Shown piece after piece: positions 8,146-17,613 of a stretch of 64,000 nucleotides of DNA. The stretch's first letter is position 1. Each line of letters starts with the position of its first letter. The DNA is from Heliobacteriaceae bacterium (GTDB lineage Bacteria > Bacillota > Desulfitobacteriia > Heliobacteriales > Heliobacteriaceae), in NCBI GenBank assembly GCA_028707535.1, contig JAQWAU010000001.1:68514-132513 (forward strand). Direction: 5' to 3'. The notes beneath the pieces were generated by a model. The model ran no database searches. It worked only from the letters and a program-made list of their open reading frames with translations, and was not told the DNA's origin. The position numbers were made by a program, and so were the translations under genes.

Positions 8146-8724
8146 TCATCTTGAAATCGAAACACCAATTTCTTTAAGTACTCTAACCGGTGTGCTATAA
8201 AAATCCCACAGCTTTCCTTCCACCCAGGCGATTATCCCCAAAAATTCGTTCATGTCTTGTTTCCAAAGGGTAACCAATTCTTCTTCCCAGGGCTCTAAAA
8301 CCACCTGAATTGGGTTCTCCCGAAAAACTTGCCACCACCGTCCGGCCATGGCCATGGCGCGGCGGTAACGGTATTCACAATCCCTGTCCTCAAATTGAAT
8401 TAAGATTAGATTGTCCGATTCTTTGGGATTGAAAGGCCAGGCTTGAAAACTTTGCCGCGTAATTTCCGGGAACCGAAAAGCGATCAAGGCATCACCTGAC
8501 TGGACCAAGGACACCATTCCCGGTTCGTTCCGGGGCGGGTGATCAACCGGCTGGGGCATACAAACCAAGGAACCCTGGTAGGAAACGTTATCATACCGGT
8601 TATTATGACCAATAAAAAAAACACTGACCTCCACAGGCATTTCTAAAAGACCCGTTTCTCGATTACAACCTTTCTGAAAATCCAGCGAAAGAGCCTGAAC
8701 GGAGATTACAGGACCAAGCCACAT
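8146..8724 (-). CDS. hypothetical Trp-rich protein, no family recognised
   Basis: The open frame runs 8146..8757. An internal ATG at 8724 (MWLGPVISV...) lies behind AAAGGAG. No recognisable motif was found. Confidence 0.45.
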   Translation of the reverse strand: MWLGPVISVQALSLDFQKGCNRETGLLEMPVEVSVFFIGHNNRYDNVSYQGSLVCMPQPVDHPPRNEPGMVSLVQSGDALIAFRFPEITRQSFQAWPFNPKESDNLILIQFEDRDCEYRYRRAMAMAGRWWQVFRENPIQVVLEPWEEELVTLWKQDMNEFLGIIAWVEGKLWDFYSTPVRVLKEIGVSISR

Positions 8725-8924: not shown

Positions 8925-9308
8925 ATGGACATTAACGACTTATTATTTGAGATCCGGCCTAAGTACAAATGTCCCACCGATCTATTTCTCCTCGTTTGTT
9001 TCTACCGGGGCCAAGAAGTAGGTCACCTGGAGTTTTTACGGCCCGGATCCTTTGTTGATCCTCGCCTCCATATTATCGAATTATGGGTAAACCCCGAATT
9101 CCGGGGTCAAGGATTTGCGAACGCCTTACTTGCCAAAATAAAGGAGGTTGCACGGAACTTCTTTGGGAAAGCGCAAATTTATGCCTTGGTATCGCCTTTA
9201 GTCAGCGACATGAAACTTTCCCGGTTGATTGCTTTGTACGTTAATAATGGATTTACGGTTAACCAAACCTCTTTTTTTGAAGCCGATGCCTACTATAATT
9301 TTGAATAG
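8925..9308 (+). CDS. GNAT family N-acetyltransferase
   Basis: Acetyl-CoA-binding motif A ...LWVNPEFRGQGFANALLAKI...; 127 aa. Confidence 0.8.
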   Translation: MDINDLLFEIRPKYKCPTDLFLLVCFYRGQEVGHLEFLRPGSFVDPRLHIIELWVNPEFRGQGFANALLAKIKEVARNFFGKAQIYALVSPLVSDMKLSRLIALYVNNGFTVNQTSFFEADAYYNFE

Positions 9309-9367
9309 CCATAGGTAAACAACCGGCTGGCCAGGCCTTTTTACCAGCGCATTTGCCGGCTTTAGTA

Positions 9368-9396
9368 TTGACAAGTGGAGACTCTTTTGATATATT
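9368..9396 (+). promoter_or_regulatory. sigmaA-type promoter for tRNA-Thr
   Basis: TTGACA, 17 nt, TATATT, ending about 22 nt before the tRNA. Confidence 0.6.
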
Positions 9397-9417
9397 TCTT
9401 TTTGCCCATCCAATTGT

Positions 9418-9493
9418 GCCGGCGTAGCTCAATTGGCAGAGCAACTGATTTGTAATCAGTAGGTTGGGGGTTCAAGTCCTCTCGCCGGCTCCA
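9418..9493 (+). tRNA. tRNA-Thr (anticodon UGU), CCA encoded
   Basis: gccggcgtagctcaattggcagagcaactgattTGTaatcagtaggttgggggttcaagtcctctcgccggctcca folds as a canonical cloverleaf. Confidence 0.9.
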
Positions 9494-9501
9494 GTAAAAT
9501 C

Positions 9502-9535
9502 AAGGCTTCCGGGTTCTCGGAAGCCTTTTCTTTTT
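9502..9535 (+). terminator. intrinsic terminator after tRNA-Thr
   Basis: A 10-bp stem aaggcttccg/cggaagcctt is followed by ttttctttttgg. Confidence 0.8.
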
Positions 9536-9775
9536 GGCTTTTGATGACAAAGAGCGACAGCATAAACAAAAAAAGCGCTAGTTGTTCGAAAATTAGCGTA
9601 TCCTCCCGATTTTTAAGCACCAAGTCCTAACCGATAGAGACCCTAGTCCGATGATCCCGCAACCTTAATCTGATTATATTATTAATAGGTAAAAAGTTGG
9701 GTTCTCACTTTTGGCCCAGCCTTTTATCCCCAACCCAGCCTTCACATTAAAACAGGAGGTGAATCCACCGGTTTT

Positions 9776-9805
9776 CCCTGCCGTTAAACGTGGCAGGGTT
9801 TTTTT
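9776..9805 (+). terminator. plus-strand-oriented intrinsic terminator with no annotated plus-strand gene upstream
   Basis: The stem ccctgcc/ggcaggg is followed by seven T. On the minus strand the hairpin is followed by aaaacc, so it is poorly suited to terminate the FtsA-like gene whose stop codon it abuts. Confidence 0.5.
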
Positions 9806-12008
9806 ATTGCCAAGTTAACTCAACCCGGGCATCATTCGGAACCGGAGTGGTATATTCGGCAAATAAACCGTTTACCACGATTTCCAAACGATTCTTTCCT
9901 TCCGGGGGAACCGGCTGAAAGTTTATCTGATATAACAATTCGGAAACAATCAAATCTGCGGAATGGCCTGTTTGCACTTCAATCCGATCGCCCTGGCATA
10001 TCGGTTCTTCACCGGTAGCCTTTTCCCCATTCAAGCATAATACAGCCGGCTTGCCCGGTAGAGTCCAAACTTCACCATTTACGTCAACGGTAATTGATTC
10101 ACCCTGCCAACGGTTAATATCCACAATCTCATTAAGTTTAAGGCTTGGCTTGTCCGACAGCTGGAAAACGATTTGATCCCCAGCCTGGACCGAGCTGGCC
10201 AGGGAAACCTGTTCGCCGTTTAAGCATACAGCCGGGGTAGCCAACGGAACCGTTTTTTCTGTACCGTTCAAAAAATAAGAAAACCAATACGTATCCTTTA
10301 TCTTAGCCAGATCCCCGGTAGCGGCAAGCAACTGCTCGACCGTCTCAATTTCCCGATAACAGATGCGAGCTCCATCCACAAAAGGTGTATCCAAAGAAAC
10401 TAGTTTGCCGTTCATCGTTACCAGAGGTGCCGCAACGACTTCCCGGCCATTCACAACAACCGGCAAGAGCTTTAAAAAGGGCAAAATATCTTTGACCATT
10501 CCTGTGGCATTTTTCCCGGATTTGGCTGCGTGAAACCGGATCTCATCACCCGGCTTTACGGCCGAATCCAGTTTTGCCTCTATGCCGTTTATAATAATTG
10601 CCGCAGGTTCACCCAAGGTACCACGCAATATCTTTACTTGCCCGTTGACTTCCACTGTTTTCGCCAGCCCGGGAAGACCATGGATCTGCTTTAGGCTGAC
10701 CCTGGCGGCCACCAGGGCATCCCCCACCGTTCCTAATTGCCCGTTGAACAGCCGCACCGGTTGTCCGTTAACCGTTACTTCATAATAGCCCGGGGATTGG
10801 TTCTTTATGGCCGTCACAGCGATTCCTACCGGCGTTACAAATTCGGGTCCATTCATATCCGCCAAGTTACCAGTCAACCCGTGCAGACTTTCCCGCCCCT
10901 TAACCCCAACTCTTTCTTTGGGCAAGCCAAGCCGGTCGGCAATTTTTACCGGTAGTAGCGGGGTTAAAGAACCACCACCAACTAAAATTACGGCCTGAGG
11001 ACATTTGCCATTAAGGGAAAGAATCTTATCGGCAACCTGGCCGGCCAGCTGCTCAACGATCGGTGTTATCGTCGCCAGCAAAGTCGACACTAGGAGCTTT
11101 TGTTCCAAACCCAATATGTCACAGGCTACGATGTTCGCTTCGCTAAAATCATCATCAGCACCATCAGCGATCAGCTGCTGCAAAACACACTTGACCCGTT
11201 CCCCTTCTTCAAATTCTAAAAGAAACTGCTGGCAGATCTGATCGGTTACTTCATCCCCCGCCACCGGAACCATGGCATAAGCCTGGATCGTATTGCCGGC
11301 TGTAAGCGCAATATCGGAAGTACCGGCCCCGATATCCACCAAGGCCAAGTTCAACTGCCGCATATTCGGGGTAATCGCTACGTTGCTGGCAGCAATTGGT
11401 TCCAAGGTCAGGCTTTTCACCTTTAAGTTAACCCGGTTAAGGACTGAAAAAAGAGAATCAACCACGACCCGGGGTAAAAAAGTGGCAATTACTTCTACTT
11501 CCGCGGTCTTCGCCCGCTGGCCTACCAAGTTGCCGATCACTTGTCCGTCCAAATAAGCCCGGATCACACTGTAACCGACACAATGACATACACCGTTGCT
11601 CTCCTGGGTAGCGTCTATTTCTTCTTCCCGGTTGTTTAACTGCCTTTCGGCGTCTTGCACCGCCGCCAATTCGAAACCAAAAACATCCTCTGTGGTAAGC
11701 TCCCGGATCACGGGAAATTGGCGGGTCGCTTTGCCATTTAAGGTGATCAAGGCCCGCCCGGCTGCGGCTACAGCTACTTCCTGCAACGGAAACCCGATTT
11801 TGCTTTCAAACCGTTCCTTGATCCGGCTAACCACCCCGGCAACCTGTTCGACATCATGAATCTGGCCGTCCAGCATGGCCCGGTTATGATGTTCTTCGCT
11901 CGCCGTATGTACTATCTGCACATTTTCGCCTGTCACTTTCGCCAAAATACCCACGACACTGCGGGTTCCAATATCCAAGGCAAAAATTAGCTCCCGGTCG
12001 TTTTTCAT
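9804..12008 (-). CDS. FtsA-like actin-fold ATPase (about 405 aa) fused to about 330 aa of tandem beta-rich 'NG..NG..GDxI' repeats
   Basis: The N-terminal part has LIFALDIGTRSV (phosphate 1), LALVDIGAGTSDIAL (phosphate 2) and ILVGGGSL (adenosine) motifs in FtsA/PilM order. The start is taken at ATG 12008 behind GAGGGGGA. The C-terminal repeats are described in the findings. Confidence 0.75.
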   Translation of the reverse strand: MKNDRELIFALDIGTRSVVGILAKVTGENVQIVHTASEEHHNRAMLDGQIHDVEQVAGVVSRIKERFESKIGFPLQEVAVAAAGRALITLNGKATRQFPVIRELTTEDVFGFELAAVQDAERQLNNREEEIDATQESNGVCHCVGYSVIRAYLDGQVIGNLVGQRAKTAEVEVIATFLPRVVVDSLFSVLNRVNLKVKSLTLEPIAASNVAITPNMRQLNLALVDIGAGTSDIALTAGNTIQAYAMVPVAGDEVTDQICQQFLLEFEEGERVKCVLQQLIADGADDDFSEANIVACDILGLEQKLLVSTLLATITPIVEQLAGQVADKILSLNGKCPQAVILVGGGSLTPLLPVKIADRLGLPKERVGVKGRESLHGLTGNLADMNGPEFVTPVGIAVTAIKNQSPGYYEVTVNGQPVRLFNGQLGTVGDALVAARVSLKQIHGLPGLAKTVEVNGQVKILRGTLGEPAAIIINGIEAKLDSAVKPGDEIRFHAAKSGKNATGMVKDILPFLKLLPVVVNGREVVAAPLVTMNGKLVSLDTPFVDGARICYREIETVEQLLAATGDLAKIKDTYWFSYFLNGTEKTVPLATPAVCLNGEQVSLASSVQAGDQIVFQLSDKPSLKLNEIVDINRWQGESITVDVNGEVWTLPGKPAVLCLNGEKATGEEPICQGDRIEVQTGHSADLIVSELLYQINFQPVPPEGKNRLEIVVNGLFAEYTTPVPNDARVELTWQ

Positions 12009-12132
12009 TAAGGTCCCCCTCACCCGGATTATTCCGATCACCAATTTTGGTTCGCCTTGGCCCGCTTAATTTCCTGCCGGAAAAAAGAACCTGCCACACC
12101 TCCTACCCCTTTCCGTTTTAGCAGGTTAAAGC

Positions 12133-12378
12133 CTAGGCGGAGAGGAGATCGAGATACCTGTCTTTACTGAGGCCGGCTTGTTGCAAGATGCCCATTACCG
12201 TGCCCTTTTTCAGCTCCTTATGCTTTCCCGGAATCGTCACCCGGATCATCCGGTCAGGGCCATTTTTCACCAGTCGAACATGACTGCCCCGCTGGCGCAC
12301 ATGCGCAAACCCATCCCGGTGTAACAGTTCAATCAGCTTTCGGCCGGAGACCACGGTTAAGCGACGGGACATCCCCAA
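12133..12378 (-). CDS. hicA: HicA-family mRNA-interferase toxin (YcfA-like), no hicB partner seen
   Basis: ...VSGRKLIELLHRDGFAHVRQRGSHVRLVK...VTIPGKHKELKKGTVMGILQQAGL matches the HicA pattern, including the GSH catalytic His. The start is probably TTG 12378 (GGAGGTGA SD at 7 nt) or ATG 12372; the longest ORF extends to 12441. Confidence 0.7.
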   Translation of the reverse strand: MGMSRRLTVVSGRKLIELLHRDGFAHVRQRGSHVRLVKNGPDRMIRVTIPGKHKELKKGTVMGILQQAGLSKDRYLDLLSA

Positions 12379-12519
12379 AAAAACGTCACCTCCAGCATTG
12401 ACGGAGGTGCAGCAGGGTTCAACTTTAGCTTTTCCCGCCACCGGCAGTTTTAAATATCCACACCTTGTTTTTCCGTTTTTCCCTATACATAAGTAACGCG
12501 GTCAGGGAAAAACTAAAAT

Positions 12520-13131
12520 GTGTCTTGCCTAAAAACCTGGCCTAAGGAGTGGTGTGGTATTTTATCCCGGTGGTTGATGCTGCCGCTTATCGTTTTGTTG
12601 GTTGGCCAACCATTGATCTGTGATGCCGTCCCGGTGAATCCGGAAAACCTAAAGATTACGAAAGCAGGACCTTATCTTCCCAACACCTCACTGGCCTGGC
12701 TTACCCGCTACAAAACCAATGCCCCGGTGCCGGCGATCAACAAGTTAATTCAAGACGGGTACCGGCTTTCCGCCCCCCTGGAAGTTACGGCCACTGCTTA
12801 TGATGCCTGTATCCAGTGTTGTGGGAAAGACGATGGCATTACAAAAACAGGGGTTAAAGCAACTGCTTGGTACACCATCGCCGTTGATCCCACTGTTATT
12901 CCTTTGGGAACTAAGATTTTTATCCCAGCCTTGGGCAAAGTCTTTGAAGCCCAGGACACAGGCGGCAAAATTCGAGGCAGACGCGTGGATCTATTTCTAC
13001 CGGATCATCATATGGCCGTCGCGTTTGGCCGCCAAAAGCTAAAAATTTACCTCCTGGCTGAACCCGACCGGGAGCCTATTACAACTGCTGTCATCACCAA
13101 ACCCCATCAAACCGAACCCCCAAAAAAATGA
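12520..13131 (+). CDS. 3D-domain (MltA/RlpA-like fold) cell-wall protein
   Basis: VTATAYDAC...GITKTG...IAVDPTVIPLGTKIFIP...FEAQDTGGKIRGRRVDLFL is the 3D (Asp-Asp-Asp) domain signature. The N-terminus is hydrophobic. The start is uncertain: GTG 12520 or an internal codon. Confidence 0.75.
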   Translation: MSCLKTWPKEWCGILSRWLMLPLIVLLVGQPLICDAVPVNPENLKITKAGPYLPNTSLAWLTRYKTNAPVPAINKLIQDGYRLSAPLEVTATAYDACIQCCGKDDGITKTGVKATAWYTIAVDPTVIPLGTKIFIPALGKVFEAQDTGGKIRGRRVDLFLPDHHMAVAFGRQKLKIYLLAEPDREPITTAVITKPHQTEPPKK

Positions 13132-13196
13132 TCGAAGCTGGCCATAAAAAACCTTTTTTAAGGCCAGCCCTTTTTTCCCCCCAGCAATGGATGTTA

Positions 13197-13715
13197 TTAG
13201 ACTTTTCCCTGGTAGTGATGCCGCCATAAAGCAGCATAACGCTGGGCATTGCCGGTAAAACGCCCGGCTTCTTCAGGAGTAAAAGTTTTTACCAGCTTTG
13301 CAGGAGTGCCGATAATTAAGCTATACGGTGGAAATTCTTTACCGGCCGGCACTACCGTATTGGCCGCAACAACAGAATGTTCCCCAATGACGGTATTATC
13401 CAATATAACCGCCCCGATCCCAATCAGGCAATAATCGCCAATCCGGGCGCTGTGGATAATCGCCCCATGCCCGACTGTAACCCAGGCACCGATGCTGGTT
13501 GGATGAAGACTATCCGTATGCACCACCACATTATCCTGGATGTTACTGTTAGCGCCGATTGTAACCGGCCAACCGAGATCACCCCGCACCACGGTATTAA
13601 ACCACAAGCTGGCACCACCGGCGATCGTTACTTGACCGGCGACAACTGCTGTCGGAGCCAGGTACGCATCAGGATCGATTTCCGGAACCCATTCCCCAAT
13701 CGGGTAGACCGGCAT
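13197..13715 (-). CDS. gamma-carbonic-anhydrase-family / hexapeptide-repeat protein (YrdA/PaaY-like)
   Basis: The N-terminus ...EIDPDAYLAPTAVVAGQVTIAGGASLWFNTVVRGD and the left-handed beta-helix hexapeptide periodicity; 172 aa. Confidence 0.85.
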   Translation of the reverse strand: MPVYPIGEWVPEIDPDAYLAPTAVVAGQVTIAGGASLWFNTVVRGDLGWPVTIGANSNIQDNVVVHTDSLHPTSIGAWVTVGHGAIIHSARIGDYCLIGIGAVILDNTVIGEHSVVAANTVVPAGKEFPPYSLIIGTPAKLVKTFTPEEAGRFTGNAQRYAALWRHHYQGKV

Positions 13716-13736
13716 AATAATTCCTCCCCCAAATCA

Positions 13737-14615
13737 TCATGCTTTTTGATAAAAAAAAGTAGCAGCGGAATTTAAACCAAGTTCCCGGGCTTGAAAAATC
13801 TGTTCAGTGGAACCCGTGAACAGAATTCCACCTTTACATAAGGCTTGACAAAACCTTTGGTACAAAAGGGTTTTGGTTTCCTCCGTAAAATAGATGACGA
13901 CATTACGGCAAAGGATCAGGTCAAACCCGGTTTCAAAGCGATCTTTAAGCAAATTGTGGCTTTGGAACTTAACATGACGTTTAACCATTTCCTTAACCCG
14001 ATAATAGCCTCCCCCTTGGTCCTCAAAATACTTTTTGATTAAAGGAGCCGGAAAATTAGCCAAGGATTTAGCGGCATATAGGCCAATTTGAGCTTTCCGC
14101 AGCACCTCCCGGTCAAGATCCGTGGCCAAAACCTGATTCCCCAAATCACACCGGGATTCCAACAGCGTAATGACTAAACTATAGGGCTCCTCCCCGGTGG
14201 AACAACCGGCCGACCAGATTTTCAGGCGTTGATTGGTTTTTAAAAGCAACGGTAAAATTTTTTGACTTAAAACCTCCCATTGCCCAGGATTGCGTAAAAA
14301 CTCGGATACATTAATCGTAATATGGTCAATAAATTTCCGGTATTGATTGGCATCCCGTTCCAAAAGCTGAAAATAAGCCGTTAAATCATTAACCCCTTGG
14401 GAACGCATTAAGGTACGGATGCGTCTTTCCATCTGTGGCCGTTTGTAATTGGTCAAATCCAGGCCACTTTTAATATGTACTCTTTTTACAAATACATCAT
14501 AATCATCCACAAGACTCACCGTATACACCCCCTTGGCACCATCATACTGGACAATTACGTCCGAAACTACGGTTACCCCTGTAGAATACTGTTTATATTG
14601 CCAATTATTAATCAT
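13737..14615 (-). CDS. cheR: chemotaxis protein methyltransferase CheR (stand-alone, no other che genes in window)
   Basis: The CheR N-domain (...KSGLDLTNYKRPQMERRI...) and SAM-binding block IWSAGCSTGEEPYSL are present. The start is moved to ATG 14615 because the ppdK terminator hairpin (14667-14696) lies inside the longest ORF. Confidence 0.85.
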   Translation of the reverse strand: MINNWQYKQYSTGVTVVSDVIVQYDGAKGVYTVSLVDDYDVFVKRVHIKSGLDLTNYKRPQMERRIRTLMRSQGVNDLTAYFQLLERDANQYRKFIDHITINVSEFLRNPGQWEVLSQKILPLLLKTNQRLKIWSAGCSTGEEPYSLVITLLESRCDLGNQVLATDLDREVLRKAQIGLYAAKSLANFPAPLIKKYFEDQGGGYYRVKEMVKRHVKFQSHNLLKDRFETGFDLILCRNVVIYFTEETKTLLYQRFCQALCKGGILFTGSTEQIFQARELGLNSAATFFYQKA

Positions 14616-14666
14616 TCTACCACCAGCGTTAAAAATCCTGCCGGCAAAAGTTACCCGGCAAAAGAC

Positions 14667-14696
14667 AAAAAAAACCTTCAGCAAAGCGCTGAAGGT
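14667..14696 (-). terminator. intrinsic terminator downstream of ppdK
   Basis: On the minus strand, a 9-bp stem accuucagc/gcugaaggu is followed by uuuuuuuu. Confidence 0.7.
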
Positions 14697-14928
14697 TTAA
14701 CGCAGTGACTCCGCTGCCCCACCTGCGTTAAAGGTAAACACACTATATATTATGCGCAAAAGGGGGCAAAGCATCACCAGTAAAACGGTTTTTTCGCCCG
14801 ATATTTAATTTTTTTGAGGAAACCATGGGGGTAAATTCCCCCGGAATTTCCATTTGAAATGGGTCATCTTCATAAAACTCAATCATGCTAGCAGTTTTCC
14901 CTGACCCAGCCAAAGTTATCCTTAAGAA

Positions 14929-17613
14929 TTATTTGGCCCGCATTACCGCTTGGGCAGCAGCCAAGCGAGCAATCGGAACCCGGTATGGTGAACACGACAC
15001 GAAATCTAGCCCAATCAAATGGCAAAACTCGACCGATGAAGGCTCTCCACCATGTTCACCGCAAATACCTACCAACAGATCCGGCCTGGTGGCCCGTCCT
15101 TTGGTCACCGCAATCTTCATCAGTTCCCCAACCCCTTCCCGATCCAATACAATGAAGGGATCATCAGCTAATATTTTTTGTTCGGCATATTGCCCCAAAA
15201 ACTTGCCTTCAGCGTCATCCCGGGAAAAGCCAAAAGTGGTCTGGGTCAAATCATTGGTGCCAAAAGAGAAGAATTCCGCTTCTTGGGCTATCTGGTCGGC
15301 TGTTATAGCCGCCCGCGGGACCTCGATCATTGTCCCGACCAAATAACTAAAATTAACGCCGGTTTCCGCCATGACTGCCGTCGCCGTTTCCGTGACCATC
15401 CGGCGGAGATACCTAAATTCATTAACATGGGCCACCAGGGGGATTTCTACTTCCGGGTCCACCTGGTAACCTTCTTGGACCAATTGGACTACGGCTTGGA
15501 AGATTGCCCGCACCTGCATCCGGTAAATCTCCGGAAAAGTAATGCCTAACCGGCAACCCCGGTGCCCGAGCATCGGGTTGAATTCGTGTAAACTGCGAAC
15601 CTTTTTAAACAAGGTTTCTTTTTCCGCCAGCTTCTCCTGAACAGCTTCCAACTCCGAACCGGTTTTACCCTCTAAGCTACAGCGCAATTTGGTTATTTCG
15701 ACCAACAATTCCTCCGAGTTAGGTAAAAACTCGTGTAAAGGCGGATCTAATAACCGGATACAAACAGGGTAACCAGCCATCACCTTGAGAATACCGTAAA
15801 AGTCATCTTGTTGCATCGGCAATAATTTAGCCAGGGCAACTTCGCGTTCCTCCACTGTTTGCGCGAGAATCATGGCTTGAACAAGCGGCAAACGGTCCTG
15901 GGCCATGAACATATGTTCCGTCCGGGTCAGACCGATGCCGGCGGCCCCGAATTCCCGGGCTTTCGCTGCTTCTTCCGGTTTGTCGGCATTGGCCCGCACC
16001 CCTAGCCGGCGGTATTCATCCGCCCACGCGAGTAAGGTGCGGAATTCTGCTGTTAATTCCGGTTCCAACATTGGAACTACCCCATCAATGACCCGGCCGG
16101 TTGCCCCGTCAACGGAAATCAGATCGCCTTTTTGGAATACCCGGGTTTCCCCGGAAGCGGCCAAAGCGCTAAACTCTTCACGGGCATAATCGATCCGCAA
16201 GGCTTCACACCCACATACACACGGTTTCCCCATTTGCCGGGCTACTACCGCCGCGTGGGAGGTCATTCCCCCCCGGCTGGTCAAAATGCCTTGGGCCGGC
16301 ACGATCCCATGAATGTCGTCCGGAGTTGTTTCCGTCCGCACCAGGATCACTTTTTCCCCGGATTTACCCAACTTTTCCGCTTCGTTGGCATCAAACACCA
16401 CTGTTCCGGAAGCAGCCCCGGGGGAAGCCGGTAATCCAACGGCGATTATCGTTAATTTGGCCCCCGGATCGATCCGGCGGTGCAGCAGTTGATTCAAGTG
16501 TTCCGGTTCAACCCGCAACAACGCTTCCTCTCTCGTAATCAAACCCTCTGCTACCATGTCGACAGCGATCTTTACCGCCGCCGCTGCAGTGCGCTTGCCG
16601 TTCCGGGTCTGCAGCATCCAGAGCTTGCCTCGTTCAATGGTAAATTCAATGTCCTGCATGTTGCGGTAGTGGTTTTCCAGGTTGTGGCAAATCTGATTAA
16701 ATTGACTATAAATTTCCGGCATCTCTTTTTCAAGCCCGGCAATTGGTTGGGGGGTACGGATACCGGCAACAACATCTTCACCCTGGGCATTGATCAGGTA
16801 TTCACCATATAACACCTTTTCCCCGGTTGAAGGGTTACGGGTAAAAGCAACCCCGGTTGCACAGTCACTGCCCATGTTACCAAACACCATGGTCTGAACA
16901 TTAACGGCAGTACCCAAATTGTCGGGAATTTTGTTGATTTGCCGGTACACAATCGCCCGATCGTTATTCCAGGACGAGAAGACTGCCTGGACCGCCCCTT
17001 TTAACTGTTCAACCGGGTCTTGGGGAAATGCTTTGCCGGTCATCTTTTCCACCAAGTTCTTGTATTCGATAATCAGCCCCTGCAAAGATGCCGGTGAAAG
17101 TTCGTGATCAAAATGGACACCCTGATTGTTCCGGTAATTTTCCAGAATATGTTCAAAATAGTGGTGATGAACCTCTAGAACAACATCAGAATACATCTGA
17201 ATAAAACGCCGGTAACAGTCCAGGGCAAACCGTTCGTTTTGGGTCGCAGCAATCAAACCGGCTATGGTAGCATCATTCAAGCCTAAGTTTAGAATGGTAT
17301 CCATCATCCCCGGCATAGAAAAGACTGCTCCGGACCGAACCGAAACCAACAGCGGTTTTTCCGGATCACCCAACCCTTTGCCTAATTTGGCTTCAAGGGT
17401 CCGCAAAGCTTCGGCGACCTGTTCCGGCATGCCTTCAGGAAATATTTGTCCCCGGGCGTAGTACTCGTTACAGGCTTCAGTAGTAATCGTAAAACCAGGA
17501 GGTACCGGAAGGCCAATATTCGTCATCTCTGCCAAATTGGCACCTTTTCCCCCTAGCAGGGAACGCATCTCCGCTTTACCTTGTTCAAAAAGATATACCC
17601 ACTTTTTAGACAT
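14929..17613 (-). CDS. ppdK: pyruvate, phosphate dikinase
   Basis: 894 aa. The N-terminus is MSKKWVYLFEQGKAEMRSLLGGKGANLAEM. The phospho-His block GGMTSHAAVVAR and the PEP-utilizer C-terminal block ...SCSPYRVPIARLAAAQA are present. Confidence 0.95.
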   Translation of the reverse strand: MSKKWVYLFEQGKAEMRSLLGGKGANLAEMTNIGLPVPPGFTITTEACNEYYARGQIFPEGMPEQVAEALRTLEAKLGKGLGDPEKPLLVSVRSGAVFSMPGMMDTILNLGLNDATIAGLIAATQNERFALDCYRRFIQMYSDVVLEVHHHYFEHILENYRNNQGVHFDHELSPASLQGLIIEYKNLVEKMTGKAFPQDPVEQLKGAVQAVFSSWNNDRAIVYRQINKIPDNLGTAVNVQTMVFGNMGSDCATGVAFTRNPSTGEKVLYGEYLINAQGEDVVAGIRTPQPIAGLEKEMPEIYSQFNQICHNLENHYRNMQDIEFTIERGKLWMLQTRNGKRTAAAAVKIAVDMVAEGLITREEALLRVEPEHLNQLLHRRIDPGAKLTIIAVGLPASPGAASGTVVFDANEAEKLGKSGEKVILVRTETTPDDIHGIVPAQGILTSRGGMTSHAAVVARQMGKPCVCGCEALRIDYAREEFSALAASGETRVFQKGDLISVDGATGRVIDGVVPMLEPELTAEFRTLLAWADEYRRLGVRANADKPEEAAKAREFGAAGIGLTRTEHMFMAQDRLPLVQAMILAQTVEEREVALAKLLPMQQDDFYGILKVMAGYPVCIRLLDPPLHEFLPNSEELLVEITKLRCSLEGKTGSELEAVQEKLAEKETLFKKVRSLHEFNPMLGHRGCRLGITFPEIYRMQVRAIFQAVVQLVQEGYQVDPEVEIPLVAHVNEFRYLRRMVTETATAVMAETGVNFSYLVGTMIEVPRAAITADQIAQEAEFFSFGTNDLTQTTFGFSRDDAEGKFLGQYAEQKILADDPFIVLDREGVGELMKIAVTKGRATRPDLLVGICGEHGGEPSSVEFCHLIGLDFVSCSPYRVPIARLAAAQAVMRAK

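What the first reader, a model, noticed from the sequence alone, without database searches (positions are those of the whole stretch)
9804..12008. FtsA-like actin-fold ATPase fused to about 330 aa of tandem beta-rich 'NG...NG...GDxI' modules
The N-terminal 405 residues or so carry the actin/Hsp70-fold phosphate and adenosine motifs in FtsA/PilM order (DIGTRSV, VDIGAGTSDI, LVGGGS). The remaining 330 aa or so (nt about 9807-10796) form at least four repeats of a 35-40-aa unit:
- VEVNGQVKILRGTLGEPAAIIINGIEAKLDSAVKPGDEIRF
- VVVNGREVVAAPLVTMNGKLVSLDTPFVDGARICY
- YFLNGTEKTVPLATPAVCLNGEQVSLASSVQAGDQIVF
- VDVNGEVWTLPGKPAVLCLNGEKATGEEPICQGDRIEV
- a partial fifth unit, IVVNGLFAEY...ARVELTW

The xVNGxxxxL...GDxIxx pattern is reminiscent of ThiS/MoaD-type or SLBB-type beta-grasp domains. 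Canonical FtsA ends instead in a short amphipathic membrane helix. I do not recognise this architecture as characterised. It suggests a cytomotive or scaffolding ATPase with a multivalent beta-grasp array, and it sits in a sporulation-rich genome next to an orphan hicA.
Basis: partly seen in the sequence, partly recalled or inferred. Interest (0 to 1): 0.6.

Follow-up and report, generated by a model that had tools for sequence, protein, structure and literature searches.

The report
FtsA-like protein with ubiquitin-like tail
This gene encodes an unstudied relative of the cell-division actin FtsA in which five small ubiquitin-like domains replace the membrane anchor, and it was found almost only in flagellated, chemotactic Bacillota, often right after the chemotaxis gene cheR, so it is probably an unrecognised accessory of the motility or chemotaxis apparatus.

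Summary
Window 9807-12008 (-) encodes a 734-aa protein.

- **N-terminal domain.** Residues 1-402 form an FtsA-type actin fold with the 1C/SHS2 insert and intact nucleotide motifs (Foldseek versus FtsA: TM 0.84-0.87).
- **Tail.** Residues 405-734 are five homologous, contiguous beta-grasp (ThiS/ubiquitin-like) domains. AF2 pLDDT is 92, every fold hit is a beta-grasp protein, and hhalign between domains gives E 1e-12 to 1e-20.
- **Family.** It is vertically inherited, single-copy and has a fixed architecture. It occurs in at least 564 Bacillota species, carries only generic names, and I found no paper on it.
- **Not the divisome FtsA.** It scores below the FtsA cut-off, has no membrane helix and lies outside the dcw cluster. 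Its presence is independent of canonical FtsA, which this genome lacks.
- **Not sporulation-linked.** It tracks motility instead. In two samples, 75/77 and 62/62 carriers have FlhA, and only 2/29 and 0/37 FlhA-negative genomes carry it.
- **cheR link.** One CheR clade lies directly upstream in at least 8 families. Here cheR sits 1.7 kb upstream.

Best reading: a chemotaxis/motility-associated actin-like scaffold. The mechanism is inferred. This scan met the family before on other genomes and gave it a similar reading.

The parts
9804..12008 (-). Complete CDS of the FtsA-like/beta-grasp protein (734 aa plus stop codon 9804-9806).
   Evidence: ORF list and translation. Full-length homologues at 40-60% identity.
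12015..12024 (-). Shine-Dalgarno-like GGTGAGGGGG, ending 6 nt before ATG 12008.
   Evidence: Read directly from the sequence.
10803..12008 (-). FtsA-type actin-fold ATPase domain (residues 1-402).
   Evidence: Pfam FtsA scores 38.7 bits (cut-off 31.8) and TIGR01174 scores 96.6 bits over residues 8-396. The AF2 model matches FtsA structures 7q6f, 7q6i and 1e4g with TM 0.80-0.87 and E down to 1e-29.
11514..11759 (-). Approximate 1C (SHS2-type) insert of the actin fold (residues ~84-165).
   Evidence: DSSP shows beta-beta-alpha-beta-beta in the model. The full-length structural match to FtsA and PilM includes 1C. SHS2_FTSA gives a weak hit in homologue P0015.
11955..11975 (-). Phosphate-1 motif DIGTRSV (residues 12-18).
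   Evidence: D12, G14 and T15 are at least 90% conserved in alignment A1.
11310..11339 (-). Phosphate-2 motif VDIGAGTSDI (residues 224-233).
   Evidence: D225, G227, A228, G229, T230 and D232 are invariant in A1.
10968..10985 (-). Adenosine motif LVGGGS (residues 342-347).
   Evidence: G344, G345 and G346 are invariant in A1.
10620..10796 (-). Beta-grasp domain D1 (residues 405-463).
   Evidence: AF2 C-terminal model with pLDDT 92. hhalign D1 versus D3 and D4 gives probability 95-96%. D1 and D2 are the best-conserved part of the tail across the phylum.
10428..10619 (-). Beta-grasp domain D2 (residues 464-527).
   Evidence: hhalign D2 versus D3, D4 and D5 gives probability 98-99% and E 3e-14 to 8e-20. 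Weak Ub-Mut7C, ThiS-like and S4 motif hits fall at residues 468-493.
10239..10427 (-). Beta-grasp domain D3 (residues 528-590).
   Evidence: hhalign and the AF2 model.
10053..10238 (-). Beta-grasp domain D4 (residues 591-652).
   Evidence: hhalign and the AF2 model.
9807..10052 (-). Beta-grasp domain D5 (residues 653-734). It ends ...ELTWQ with a near-invariant Trp and has no Gly-Gly terminus.
   Evidence: hhalign. In homologue P0116 the equivalent region matches Pfam ThiS positions 13-69. W733 is at least 90% conserved.
9776..9798 (.). GC-rich hairpin 6 nt after the stop codon. The T-run lies on the + strand only. It is a possible two-way terminator shared with the convergent + strand transcript.
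   Evidence: Terminator scan and the sequence itself.
13737..14684 (-). cheR (chemotaxis methyltransferase), 1.7 kb upstream on the same strand. It belongs to the CheR clade that is syntenic with this gene family.
   Evidence: Pfam CheR 183.5 bits and CheR_N 58.3 bits. CheR tree. Same gene order in Heliobacterium mobile.

Best explanation
**Shown.** The gene encodes a soluble, ATP-binding, FtsA-derived actin-fold protein. The membrane-targeting helix of FtsA is replaced by five tandem ThiS/ubiquitin-like beta-grasp domains joined by linkers of only 1-3 residues. The protein belongs to an old, vertically inherited, single-copy family of Bacillota. The family was found almost only in genomes with flagellar and chemotaxis genes, and it forms a conserved gene pair with one clade of cheR.

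**Inferred.** The protein is an accessory scaffold of the chemotaxis/motility apparatus.
- The actin-fold head polymerises, or docks onto a short peptide of a partner. FtsA does this with the FtsZ tail and PilM with the PilN N-terminus.
- The beta-grasp tail acts as a multivalent protein-binding arm. It could hold CheR or other adaptation proteins at chemoreceptor arrays, or position arrays or flagella in the cell.

It is not the divisome FtsA. In this heliobacterial lineage three small genes have been inserted between cheR and the gene, so here it probably has its own promoter.
For: **Architecture**
- (FtsA fold, TM 0.84-0.87).
- five homologous beta-grasp domains. The fold hits are multi-ubiquitin protein 9cd2, ISG15, SAMP1, ThiS 3cwi (TM 0.60, rmsd 2.8 A) and TGS domains.
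- The architecture is fixed. In 292 clusters at 50% identity the array sits at about 385-720 of proteins of about 700 aa.

**Phyletic pattern, phylum sample of 151 genomes**
- 75 of 77 carriers have FlhA. Only 2 of 29 FlhA-negative genomes carry the gene.
- 76 of 77 carriers have CheR. Only 1 of 24 CheR-negative genomes carries the gene.
- Among SpoIVA-negative genomes, 6 of 7 with FlhA carry it and 0 of 17 without FlhA do.

**Phyletic pattern, Bacilli-class sample of 151 genomes**
- All 62 carriers have FlhA, and 0 of 37 FlhA-negative genomes carry the gene.

**Gene neighbourhood**
- cheR lies at most 2 kb upstream on the same strand in at least 13 of 77 carriers from 8 GTDB families.
- It is directly adjacent in L015 and L089, and within about 0.6-0.85 kb upstream in L012 and L024.
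- A whole che operon lies 1.2 kb away in L087.
- CheB and CheC flank the gene in L069.
- All 18 gene-linked CheRs form one clade (SH-aLRT 97), distinct from the second CheRs of the same genomes.

**Window.** cheR lies at 13737-14684 on the same strand.

**Literature.** A published table lists an 'FtsA' orthologous group depleted in gut Clostridia together with flagellar and che genes (PMC4945068). Whether that group is this family is not verified.
Against: - There is no direct functional evidence.
- About 40-45% of flagellated genomes lack the gene (47/122 and 52/114), so it is dispensable for motility as such.
- Most family members are monocistronic. In Bacillales the gene sits in a housekeeping synteny block (aroA | gene | ytxJ).
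- Other neighbours occur: minE and rodA in two loci, pfkA, tagA, and mreB-like genes in 7 loci.
- No SigD-type promoter was found upstream in any of 84 loci or in the window.
- Related genomes are not independent, and non-motile lineages often have reduced genomes, so the Fisher p-values overstate the link.
- In this window cheR is not adjacent: three genes intervene, one of them on the other strand.
Confidence: 0.5

Rival explanations
1. It is a division or cell-shape cytoskeletal protein: an FtsA paralogue that tethers or organises FtsZ or MreB. In lineages without canonical FtsA, such as this one, it would stand in for FtsA.
For: - The closest fold and profile match is FtsA.
- This genome has no canonical ftsA. 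The dcw cluster runs murG-murC-murB-murA-ftsQ-ftsZ-spoIIGA-sigE-sigG with nothing between ftsQ and ftsZ, and the only other actin-fold hits are MreB and Mbl.
- Four high-quality genomes of the same class likewise gave no hit above the FtsA cut-off.
- The gene lies between minE and rodA in L056 and L060, and mreB-like genes lie within 6 kb in 7 loci.
Against: - Presence is statistically independent of canonical FtsA: both 48, long form only 29, FtsA only 39, neither 35.
- 35 genomes have neither protein and still must divide.
- It was found in only 2 of 66 FlhA-negative genomes across the two samples.
- It has no membrane-targeting helix, scores 96.6 bits against the 175.85-bit FtsA cut-off, and was never found beside ftsZ.
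Confidence: 0.2
2. It is a sporulation-specific scaffold, which is the context the first reader stressed: an actin-like protein acting at the asymmetric septum or during engulfment.
For: - The genome encodes spoIVA, spoIIGA, sigE and sigG.
- 71 of 77 carriers have SpoIVA.
Against: - Within FlhA-positive genomes there is no dependence on SpoIVA (69/6 versus 46/1, p = 0.25).
- Six carriers lack SpoIVA, including two genomes of a family in which no genome searched has SpoIVA.
- 56 SpoIVA-positive genomes lack the gene.
- Members occur in Negativicutes labelled Selenomonadaceae and Veillonellaceae.
Confidence: 0.05
3. The beta-grasp array binds a nucleic acid or a small molecule (TGS/S4-like or SLBB-like). 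This would make the protein a sensor or regulator, for example of tRNA, (p)ppGpp or a second messenger, rather than a protein scaffold.
For: - Weak TGS, S4 and Ub-Mut7C motif matches.
- A profile of D5 hits the Hsp15, YabO and S4 motif at E 0.05-0.3.
- Foldseek lists the TGS domains of SpoT and RelA, and Wza.
Against: - All these sequence hits are insignificant and cover only the generic xNGxxAxxxxxxxGDxIxV hairpin.
- The conserved residues are turn-forming N/G/D, not a ligand pocket.
- The best fold hits are ubiquitin-like proteins.
Confidence: 0.08
4. It is part of a ubiquitin-like conjugation, sulfur-carrier or anti-phage (Bub/Bil-type multi-ubiquitin) system, or it is a PilM-type pilus platform protein.
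For: - The top fold hit of the tail is the E. coli multi-ubiquitin protein 9cd2 (E 3e-4).
- Pfam PilM_2 scores 36.2 bits.
Against: - No domain ends in Gly-Gly.
- No E1, E2, JAB, pilN or pilO neighbours appear in the loci whose genes were annotated (L004, L087-L089) or among the recurring neighbour clusters of the 80 loci that I annotated.
- PADLOC and PHROGs give nothing meaningful.
- The gene is single-copy, chromosomal and vertically inherited.
- FtsA ranks above PilM by both profile and fold.
Confidence: 0.05

Closest known systems
FtsA (divisome actin homologue; TIGR01174, PF14450; PDB 7q6f, 7q6d, 1e4g, 4a2a, 3wqt)
   Same: - Same four-subdomain actin fold with the 1C (SHS2) insert in place of 1B (TM 0.80-0.87).
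- Same order of phosphate-1, phosphate-2 and adenosine motifs.
- Best profile match of all NCBIfam models (96.6 bits).
   Different: - The score is far below the equivalog cut-off (175.85). Canonical FtsA of the same phylum scores 220-455 bits.
- It has no C-terminal amphipathic membrane helix and carries 330 aa of beta-grasp domains instead.
- It is not encoded beside ftsZ.
- Its presence is independent of FtsA, and it was found almost only in flagellated genomes.
PilM (type IV pilus platform protein; TIGR01175, PF11104; PDB 2ych, 5eou)
   Same: - FtsA-like actin fold with a 1C domain and no membrane helix of its own.
- PilM is recruited by binding a short peptide of a membrane partner (PilN), which is a plausible model for how this protein is recruited.
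   Different: - The profile and fold scores are lower than for FtsA.
- No pilN, pilO or other pilus genes were seen among the annotated neighbours.
- PilM has no beta-grasp tail.
ThiS/MoaD/SAMP/ubiquitin-type beta-grasp proteins (PF02597; PDB 3cwi, 3po0)
   Same: - Each tail domain has the beta-beta-alpha-beta-beta core and the 'xVNG...GDxI' hairpin signature.
- Pfam ThiS passes its cut-off in homologues.
- Foldseek aligns ThiS with TM 0.60 and rmsd 2.8 A.
   Different: - The domains are not stand-alone. Five are fused in tandem to an actin fold.
- None has a C-terminal Gly-Gly.
- No E1-like partner gene was seen.
- So they are not sulfur carriers or conjugated modifiers.
Bacterial multi-ubiquitin domain proteins of Bub-type operons (PF14452; PDB 9cd2, 9d5b) and eukaryotic ISG15
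   Same: Tandem beta-grasp domains in one chain. 9cd2 is the best overall fold hit of the tail (E 3e-4).
   Different: - Only about 9% identity.
- No conjugation or defence genes were seen nearby, and there is no PADLOC match.
- These proteins have no actin-fold head.
ParA-type positioning systems for chemoreceptor arrays (ParC/ParP of Vibrio, PpfA of Rhodobacter) and FlhF/FlhG. This is a functional analogy recalled from the literature, not tested here.
   Same: They are nucleotide-dependent cytoskeleton-like accessories that place or organise chemotaxis arrays or flagella. They are dispensable for the core signalling chemistry and patchily distributed among motile bacteria.
   Different: - The fold is unrelated (P-loop ATPase or GTPase versus actin fold).
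- No homology exists.
- The analogous role of the present protein is only inferred.

Membership tests
FtsA (TIGR01174 equivalog) | Score at or above the curated equivalog cut-off (175.85 bits). | tested here: not met
   96.6 bits. Canonical FtsA in the same phylum scores 222-455 bits, while the long form scores about 94-128 bits.
FtsA (TIGR01174 equivalog) | Actin fold with a 1C (SHS2) subdomain and nucleotide-binding motifs. | tested here: met
   The AF2 model compared with 7q6f, 7q6i and 1e4g gives TM 0.80-0.87. The motifs are invariant.
FtsA (TIGR01174 equivalog) | C-terminal amphipathic membrane-targeting helix. | tested here: not met
   Residues 405-734 are beta-rich domains. There is no terminal helix and the last element is a strand, 728-733.
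FtsA (TIGR01174 equivalog) | Encoded in the dcw cluster next to ftsZ. | tested here: not met
   ftsZ lies on another contig, and ftsQ-ftsZ are adjacent with no ftsA between them. None of the 84 family loci examined lies beside ftsZ.
FtsA (TIGR01174 equivalog) | Binds the FtsZ C-terminal peptide through subdomain 2B. | not testable with these tools
   This needs binding assays or complex prediction.
PilM (TIGR01175) | Score above the cut-off (133 bits) and pilN/pilO neighbours. | tested here: not met
   58.7 bits. No pil genes appear among the annotated neighbours.
ThiS/MoaD (PF02597) | Beta-grasp fold. | tested here: met
   The C-terminal model (pLDDT 92.1) hits only beta-grasp proteins. ThiS 3cwi matches with TM 0.60, and SAMP1 with probability 0.98.
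ThiS/MoaD (PF02597) | Pfam gathering score. | tested here: inconclusive
   This protein shows only sub-threshold ThiS-like and Ub-Mut7C hits. Homologues pass, for example P0015 at 60.3 bits against a 22.5-bit cut-off, summed over the repeats.
ThiS/MoaD (PF02597) | Free C-terminal Gly-Gly and an E1-like (ThiF/MoeB) partner. | tested here: not met
   The protein ends ...ELTWQ and the internal domains have no Gly-Gly ends. No E1-like neighbour was seen.
Multi-ubiquitin / Bub-type defence proteins (PF14452) | Profile match and neighbouring E1/E2/JAB genes. | tested here: not met
   There is no PF14452 hit for this protein and no meaningful PADLOC match. Resemblance is in fold only, at 9% identity.
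The family itself ('long FtsA-like with beta-grasp tail', unnamed) | FtsA-like head with motifs D[IV]GAGTSD[IV] and MVPxAGDE, plus 4-5 C-terminal beta-grasp domains ending in a conserved Trp. | tested here: met
   Full-length alignments at 40-60% identity with over 99% coverage.

The most novel reading that the evidence does not exclude
This would be the first actin-fold component of a bacterial chemotaxis system. It would be an FtsA-derived polymer or docking scaffold whose five-domain ubiquitin-like arm recruits CheR (or other adaptation proteins) to chemoreceptor arrays, or positions the arrays, in flagellated Bacillota.
Probability: 0.35. Interest if true: 0.8.

Novelty: new variant of a known kind. 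Interest (0 to 1): 0.62.

Why it matters
FtsA, PilM and MreB show that bacterial actin folds are reused as membrane-proximal organisers. A widespread fourth use, tied to chemotaxis or flagella rather than to division, pili or wall growth, would add a cytoskeletal player to one of the best-studied signalling systems.

It could also help explain how adaptation enzymes are held at receptor arrays in Bacillota. From memory, not tested here: receptors in this group mostly lack the pentapeptide tether used in E. coli.

On the practical side, the family (at least 564 species) is currently mislabelled 'cell division protein FtsA' or 'rod shape-determining protein'. That label gives a false impression that genomes such as this one possess FtsA. 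This genome and its class appear to divide without a canonical FtsA.

Tried and rejected
- **Interleaved or domain-swapped topology of the tail.** I considered a topology in which the hairpin of one unit packs with the strands of the next. I dropped it in favour of five contiguous beta-beta-alpha-beta-beta domains. That phase gives full-length hhalign matches between D2 and D5. It agrees with the Pfam ThiS coordinates in homologues. It also fits the multi-domain Foldseek alignments to 9cd2 and ISG15. I could not check it on coordinates.
- **SigD (flagellar sigma) promoter.** The pattern TAAA-N14-16-GCCGATAT with at most 1 mismatch was found upstream of 0 of 84 family genes and not in the window.
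- **Rosetta-stone fusions.** Longer members (781-871 aa) carry no extra Pfam domain.
- **Operon partners.** Most loci are monocistronic. The recurrent Bacillales neighbours (aroA, ccpA, ytxJ/H/G, murC, acuBC, motPS) are inherited synteny.
- **Sequence profile of D5 against the PDB.** Only insignificant S4/ThiS-motif hits, E at least 0.05.
- **Defence-system and phage libraries.** Nothing meaningful.
- **Rfam on 9000-15000.** Only tRNA-Thr.
- **Literature.** Eight full-text searches, and a look inside the 2007 beta-grasp survey (PMC1949818), found no description of this architecture.
- **The look-up of encoding contigs for the Heliomicrobium modesticaldum homologue.** No record returned.
Full report
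**1. The observation**

The window carries one long ORF at 9804..12044 on the minus strand.
- The TTG at 12044 is the first possible start.
- The ATG at 12008 is preceded by GGTGAGGGGG at the right distance.
- Homologues align from residue about 7 onward, so I take ATG 12008 as the start. This gives 734 aa (P0001).
- A GC-rich hairpin at 9776-9798 follows the stop codon.

They are invariant or nearly so in an alignment of 49 full-length homologues.

**2. The N-terminal half**

Profile matches:
- Pfam FtsA, 38.7 bits (cut-off 31.8), and PilM_2.
- NCBIfam TIGR01174 (ftsA), 96.6 bits over residues 8-396, well below the equivalog cut-off of 175.85.
- pilM, 58.7 bits.
- EutJ and MreB, lower still.

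An AlphaFold2 model of the whole protein, built with the 49-sequence alignment, has mean pLDDT 86.6. Foldseek against the PDB ranks the families in this order:
- FtsA structures first: 7q6i, 7q6d, 7q6f, 1e4g and 3wqt, E down to 1.6e-29, target-normalised TM 0.80-0.87.
- Then PilM.
- Then EutJ.
- Then MreB.

Residues 1-402 are therefore an FtsA-type actin fold that includes the 1C (SHS2) insert.

**3. The C-terminal half**

- The four full modules are homologous, with probability 98-99% and E 1e-13 to 4e-18.
- The 'partial fifth' module matches the second half of a module.

*Model and fold.* A second AF2 model of residues 403-734 has pLDDT 92.1. Its secondary structure is a regular series of beta-hairpins and short helices. 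Foldseek returns only beta-grasp proteins:
- the E. coli multi-ubiquitin protein 9cd2 (E 3e-4);
- ISG15;
- SAMP1 3po0 (probability 0.98);
- ThiS 3cwi (TM 0.60, rmsd 2.8 A);
- the TGS domains of SpoT and RelA;
- 2Fe-2S-ferredoxin-like domains and FERM F1.

*Pfam.* In homologues Pfam ThiS passes its gathering score (for example 60.3 bits in P0015). Some matches run from the helix into the next 'NG...GDxI' hairpin.

*Domain phase.* Combining these results, the best phase is five contiguous beta-beta-alpha-beta-beta domains: D1 405-463, D2 464-527, D3 528-590, D4 591-652 and D5 653-734. In this phase D2 to D5 align over their whole lengths (E 5e-13 to 8e-20), and D1 aligns to D3 and D4 at probability 95-96%.
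- Linkers are only 1-3 residues long, so the tail is probably fairly rigid. This is inference, because I could not inspect coordinates.

*Other points.*
- No domain ends in Gly-Gly. The protein ends ...ELTWQ with a near-invariant Trp.
- A sequence profile of D5 finds only insignificant hits in the PDB. They match the generic xNGxxA...GDxIxV hairpin shared by S4 and ThiS-type proteins. The fold assignment therefore rests on the models and on the Pfam hits in homologues.

**4. The family**

- Full-length relatives at 40-60% identity are abundant. They include heliobacteria (59-60%), Brevibacillus, Effusibacillus, Thermincola, Halonatronum and Calderihabitans. Their names are generic: 'cell division FtsA domain-containing protein', 'rod shape-determining protein' or 'ATPase'.
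The hits span Bacillaceae, Paenibacillaceae, Negativicutes, Halanaerobiales, Syntrophomonadaceae, Moorella and Desulfitobacteriaceae.
- Searching 1.84 billion representative proteins with the tail alone gave 292 clusters at E <= 1e-10. In the full-length hits the tail sits at about residue 385-720 of a protein of about 700 aa, and the shorter hits look like fragments. The architecture is therefore fixed and the tail was not seen on its own. Some members (about 610-680 aa) appear to have four domains.
- The gene is single-copy in every genome searched, and its tree follows taxonomy.
- Neither Pfam nor NCBIfam has a dedicated model.
- PADLOC and PHROGs give nothing meaningful.
- I found no paper describing the family.

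**5. It is not the divisome FtsA**

- In the window's own assembly (2.09 Mb, 87.6% complete) this gene is the only FtsA-like hit. The two other actin-fold hits are mreB (beside mreC and radC) and mbl.
- The dcw cluster reads murG-murC-murB-murA-ftsQ-ftsZ-spoIIGA-sigE-sigG, with nothing between ftsQ and ftsZ.
- Four genomes of the same family or class, each 99-100% complete, also gave no match above the FtsA cut-off.
- Across 151 genomes of the phylum the long form and canonical FtsA are independent: both 48, long form only 29, FtsA only 39, neither 35 (odds ratio 1.5, p = 0.25).

The long form is therefore neither a replacement for FtsA nor dependent on it.

**6. What it does track**

I tested that here.

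| Sample | Marker | Carriers with marker | Marker-negative genomes that carry the gene |
|---|---|---|---|
| Phylum, 151 genomes | FlhA | 75 of 77 | 2 of 29 |
| Phylum, 151 genomes | CheR | 76 of 77 | 1 of 24 |
| Class Bacilli, 151 genomes | FlhA | 62 of 62 | 0 of 37 |

- The sporulation marker SpoIVA is present in 71 of 77 carriers. The dependence disappears within FlhA-positive genomes.
- Among SpoIVA-negative genomes, 6 of 7 with FlhA carry the gene and 0 of 17 without FlhA do.
- Within two GTDB families that are mixed for FlhA (f29 and f14), the gene follows FlhA and CheR.

Caveats:
- Relatives are not independent, so the Fisher p-values (4e-8, 1.5e-7, 6e-11) overstate the case.
- Non-motile lineages often have reduced genomes.
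- 40-45% of flagellated genomes lack the gene.

**7. Neighbourhood**

*Bacillales.* The gene sits in a fixed synteny block, acuBC-motPS-ccpA-aroA | gene | ytxJ-ytxH-ytxG-murC. It is monocistronic there.

*Elsewhere, cheR recurs immediately upstream on the same strand.*
- It is directly adjacent in L015 and L089, and within about 0.6-0.85 kb upstream in L012 and L024.
- By coordinates it lies within 2 kb upstream in at least 13 of the 77 carriers of the phylum sample, from 8 GTDB families.
- A complete cheW-cheD-cheC-cheY-cheB-cheW-cheA operon plus cheR lies 1.2 kb from the gene in L087.
- CheB and CheC flank it in L069.

*CheR tree.* In a tree of 48 CheR proteins all 18 gene-linked CheRs fall in one clade of 20 (SH-aLRT 97). 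That clade lies inside the larger clade holding CheRs of fla/che clusters. The second CheRs of the same genomes, including the one on contig C22 of this genome, form a separate clade (support 100). The cheR-gene pair is therefore old and conserved, although the partner proteins are only 35-45% identical between lineages.

*Window.* The order on the minus strand is:
- ppdK;
- cheR (13737-14684);
- a hexapeptide-repeat protein (13197-13715);
- a 3D-domain gene on the opposite strand (12520-13131);
- hicA (12133-12372);
- the gene.

Heliobacterium mobile has the same order. In heliobacteria the pair has thus been pried apart by small insertions.

*Other neighbours.* minE and rodA in L056 and L060, pfkA, tagA, ctsR-clpC, and mreB-like genes in 7 loci. 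These are lineage-specific.

*Promoter.* No SigD-type promoter was found upstream in 0 of 84 loci or in the window.

*Literature.* A published comparison of gut and non-gut Clostridia lists an 'FtsA' orthologous group depleted in gut species (26% versus 83%), among the flagellar and chemotaxis genes (PMC4945068). This would fit, but I cannot verify that the group is this family.

**8. Mechanism**

*Shown:*
- the architecture;
- conservation of the nucleotide motifs;
- absence of a membrane helix;
- vertical inheritance;
- near-restriction to genomes with che and fla genes;
- the conserved cheR pairing.

*Inferred:* the protein is an accessory scaffold of the chemotaxis/motility apparatus.
- Its actin-fold head polymerises or docks on a partner peptide, as FtsA does with FtsZ and PilM with PilN.
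- Its five-domain ubiquitin-like arm binds proteins, with CheR the prime candidate.

I put this at about 0.5. The rivals, with their evidence, are given in their own section. In brief:

| Rival | Probability |
|---|---|
| Division or shape role | about 0.2 |
| Ligand or RNA sensor | about 0.08 |
| Sporulation role | about 0.05 |
| Ubl-conjugation, defence or pilus roles | about 0.05 |

**9. Comparison and novelty**

- The protein works from an FtsA-type fold but fails three of the four testable defining features of FtsA: the equivalog score, the membrane helix and the dcw location.
- Its tail domains are beta-grasp, but they are neither sulfur carriers nor conjugatable ubiquitin-like proteins.
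- The family exists in databases under misleading generic names and appears unstudied.
- I class it as a new variant of a known kind.
- This scan has met the family before on several other genomes. Follow-up agents there reached a similar reading: an FtsA-like head, a beta-grasp tail and a motility/chemotaxis link.
- My phyletic tests, the CheR tree and the FtsA-independence test were run here independently. The SigD-promoter detail from one of those notes did not generalise.

Noticed in passing
own genome, contig C48 (locus L006 1-11001): The dcw cluster reads murG-murC-murB-murA-ftsQ-ftsZ-spoIIGA-sigE-sigG with no ftsA between ftsQ and ftsZ. No canonical FtsA (TIGR01174 above its cut-off) was found in this assembly (87.6% complete) or in four genomes of the same family or class that are 99-100% complete. 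The lineage appears to divide without FtsA.
   Followed up: partly
window 13737-14684 (-), and own genome C22:48031-48597: The genome has two CheR genes from two deep CheR clades. The one in the window belongs to the clade that is syntenic with the FtsA-like family. The other lies on the contig that also carries flhA.
   Followed up: yes
window 12133-12372 (-), hairpin 12387-12409: There is a HicA toxin gene (Pfam 65 bits) with no obvious hicB partner. A terminator-like hairpin plus T-run sits just upstream of its start on the same strand. Heliobacterium mobile has a 104-aa ORF at the same place (L007 4468-4782).
   Followed up: partly
window 8149-8724 (-): A 192-aa Trp-rich ORF has no Pfam match at E <= 0.001. 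It sits in the lower-GC patch (0.44-0.45) between the beta-lactamase-like gene and tRNA-Thr.
   Followed up: no
L056 and L060 (Firmicutes UBA3567; Thermosediminibacterales MAG): In these two related genomes the family member lies between minE (about 50 nt upstream) and a rodA/ftsW-type gene (about 54 nt downstream), that is, inside a cell-shape/division cluster. This is the one neighbourhood that favours the division/shape rival.
   Followed up: partly
L004, L009-L086 (Bacillales loci): In Bacillales the gene occupies a fixed slot between aroA and ytxJ-ytxH-ytxG-murC, a few genes from ccpA-motP-motS and acuBC. From memory, not tested here, B. subtilis 168 has this block without the gene.
   Followed up: partly
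genomes G050, G031, G068, G108 of the phylum sample: Further short (430-470 aa) FtsA-like paralogues score 98-174 bits against TIGR01174, between the long form and canonical FtsA. This hints at more unclassified FtsA-like subfamilies in Bacillota.
   Followed up: no
window 9776-9798: A hairpin CCCTGCC-N9-GGCAGGG lies 6 nt after the stop codon. It has an A-run on one side and a T-run on the other. It could terminate both the FtsA-like gene and a convergent plus-strand transcript coming from the tRNA-Thr side.
   Followed up: no
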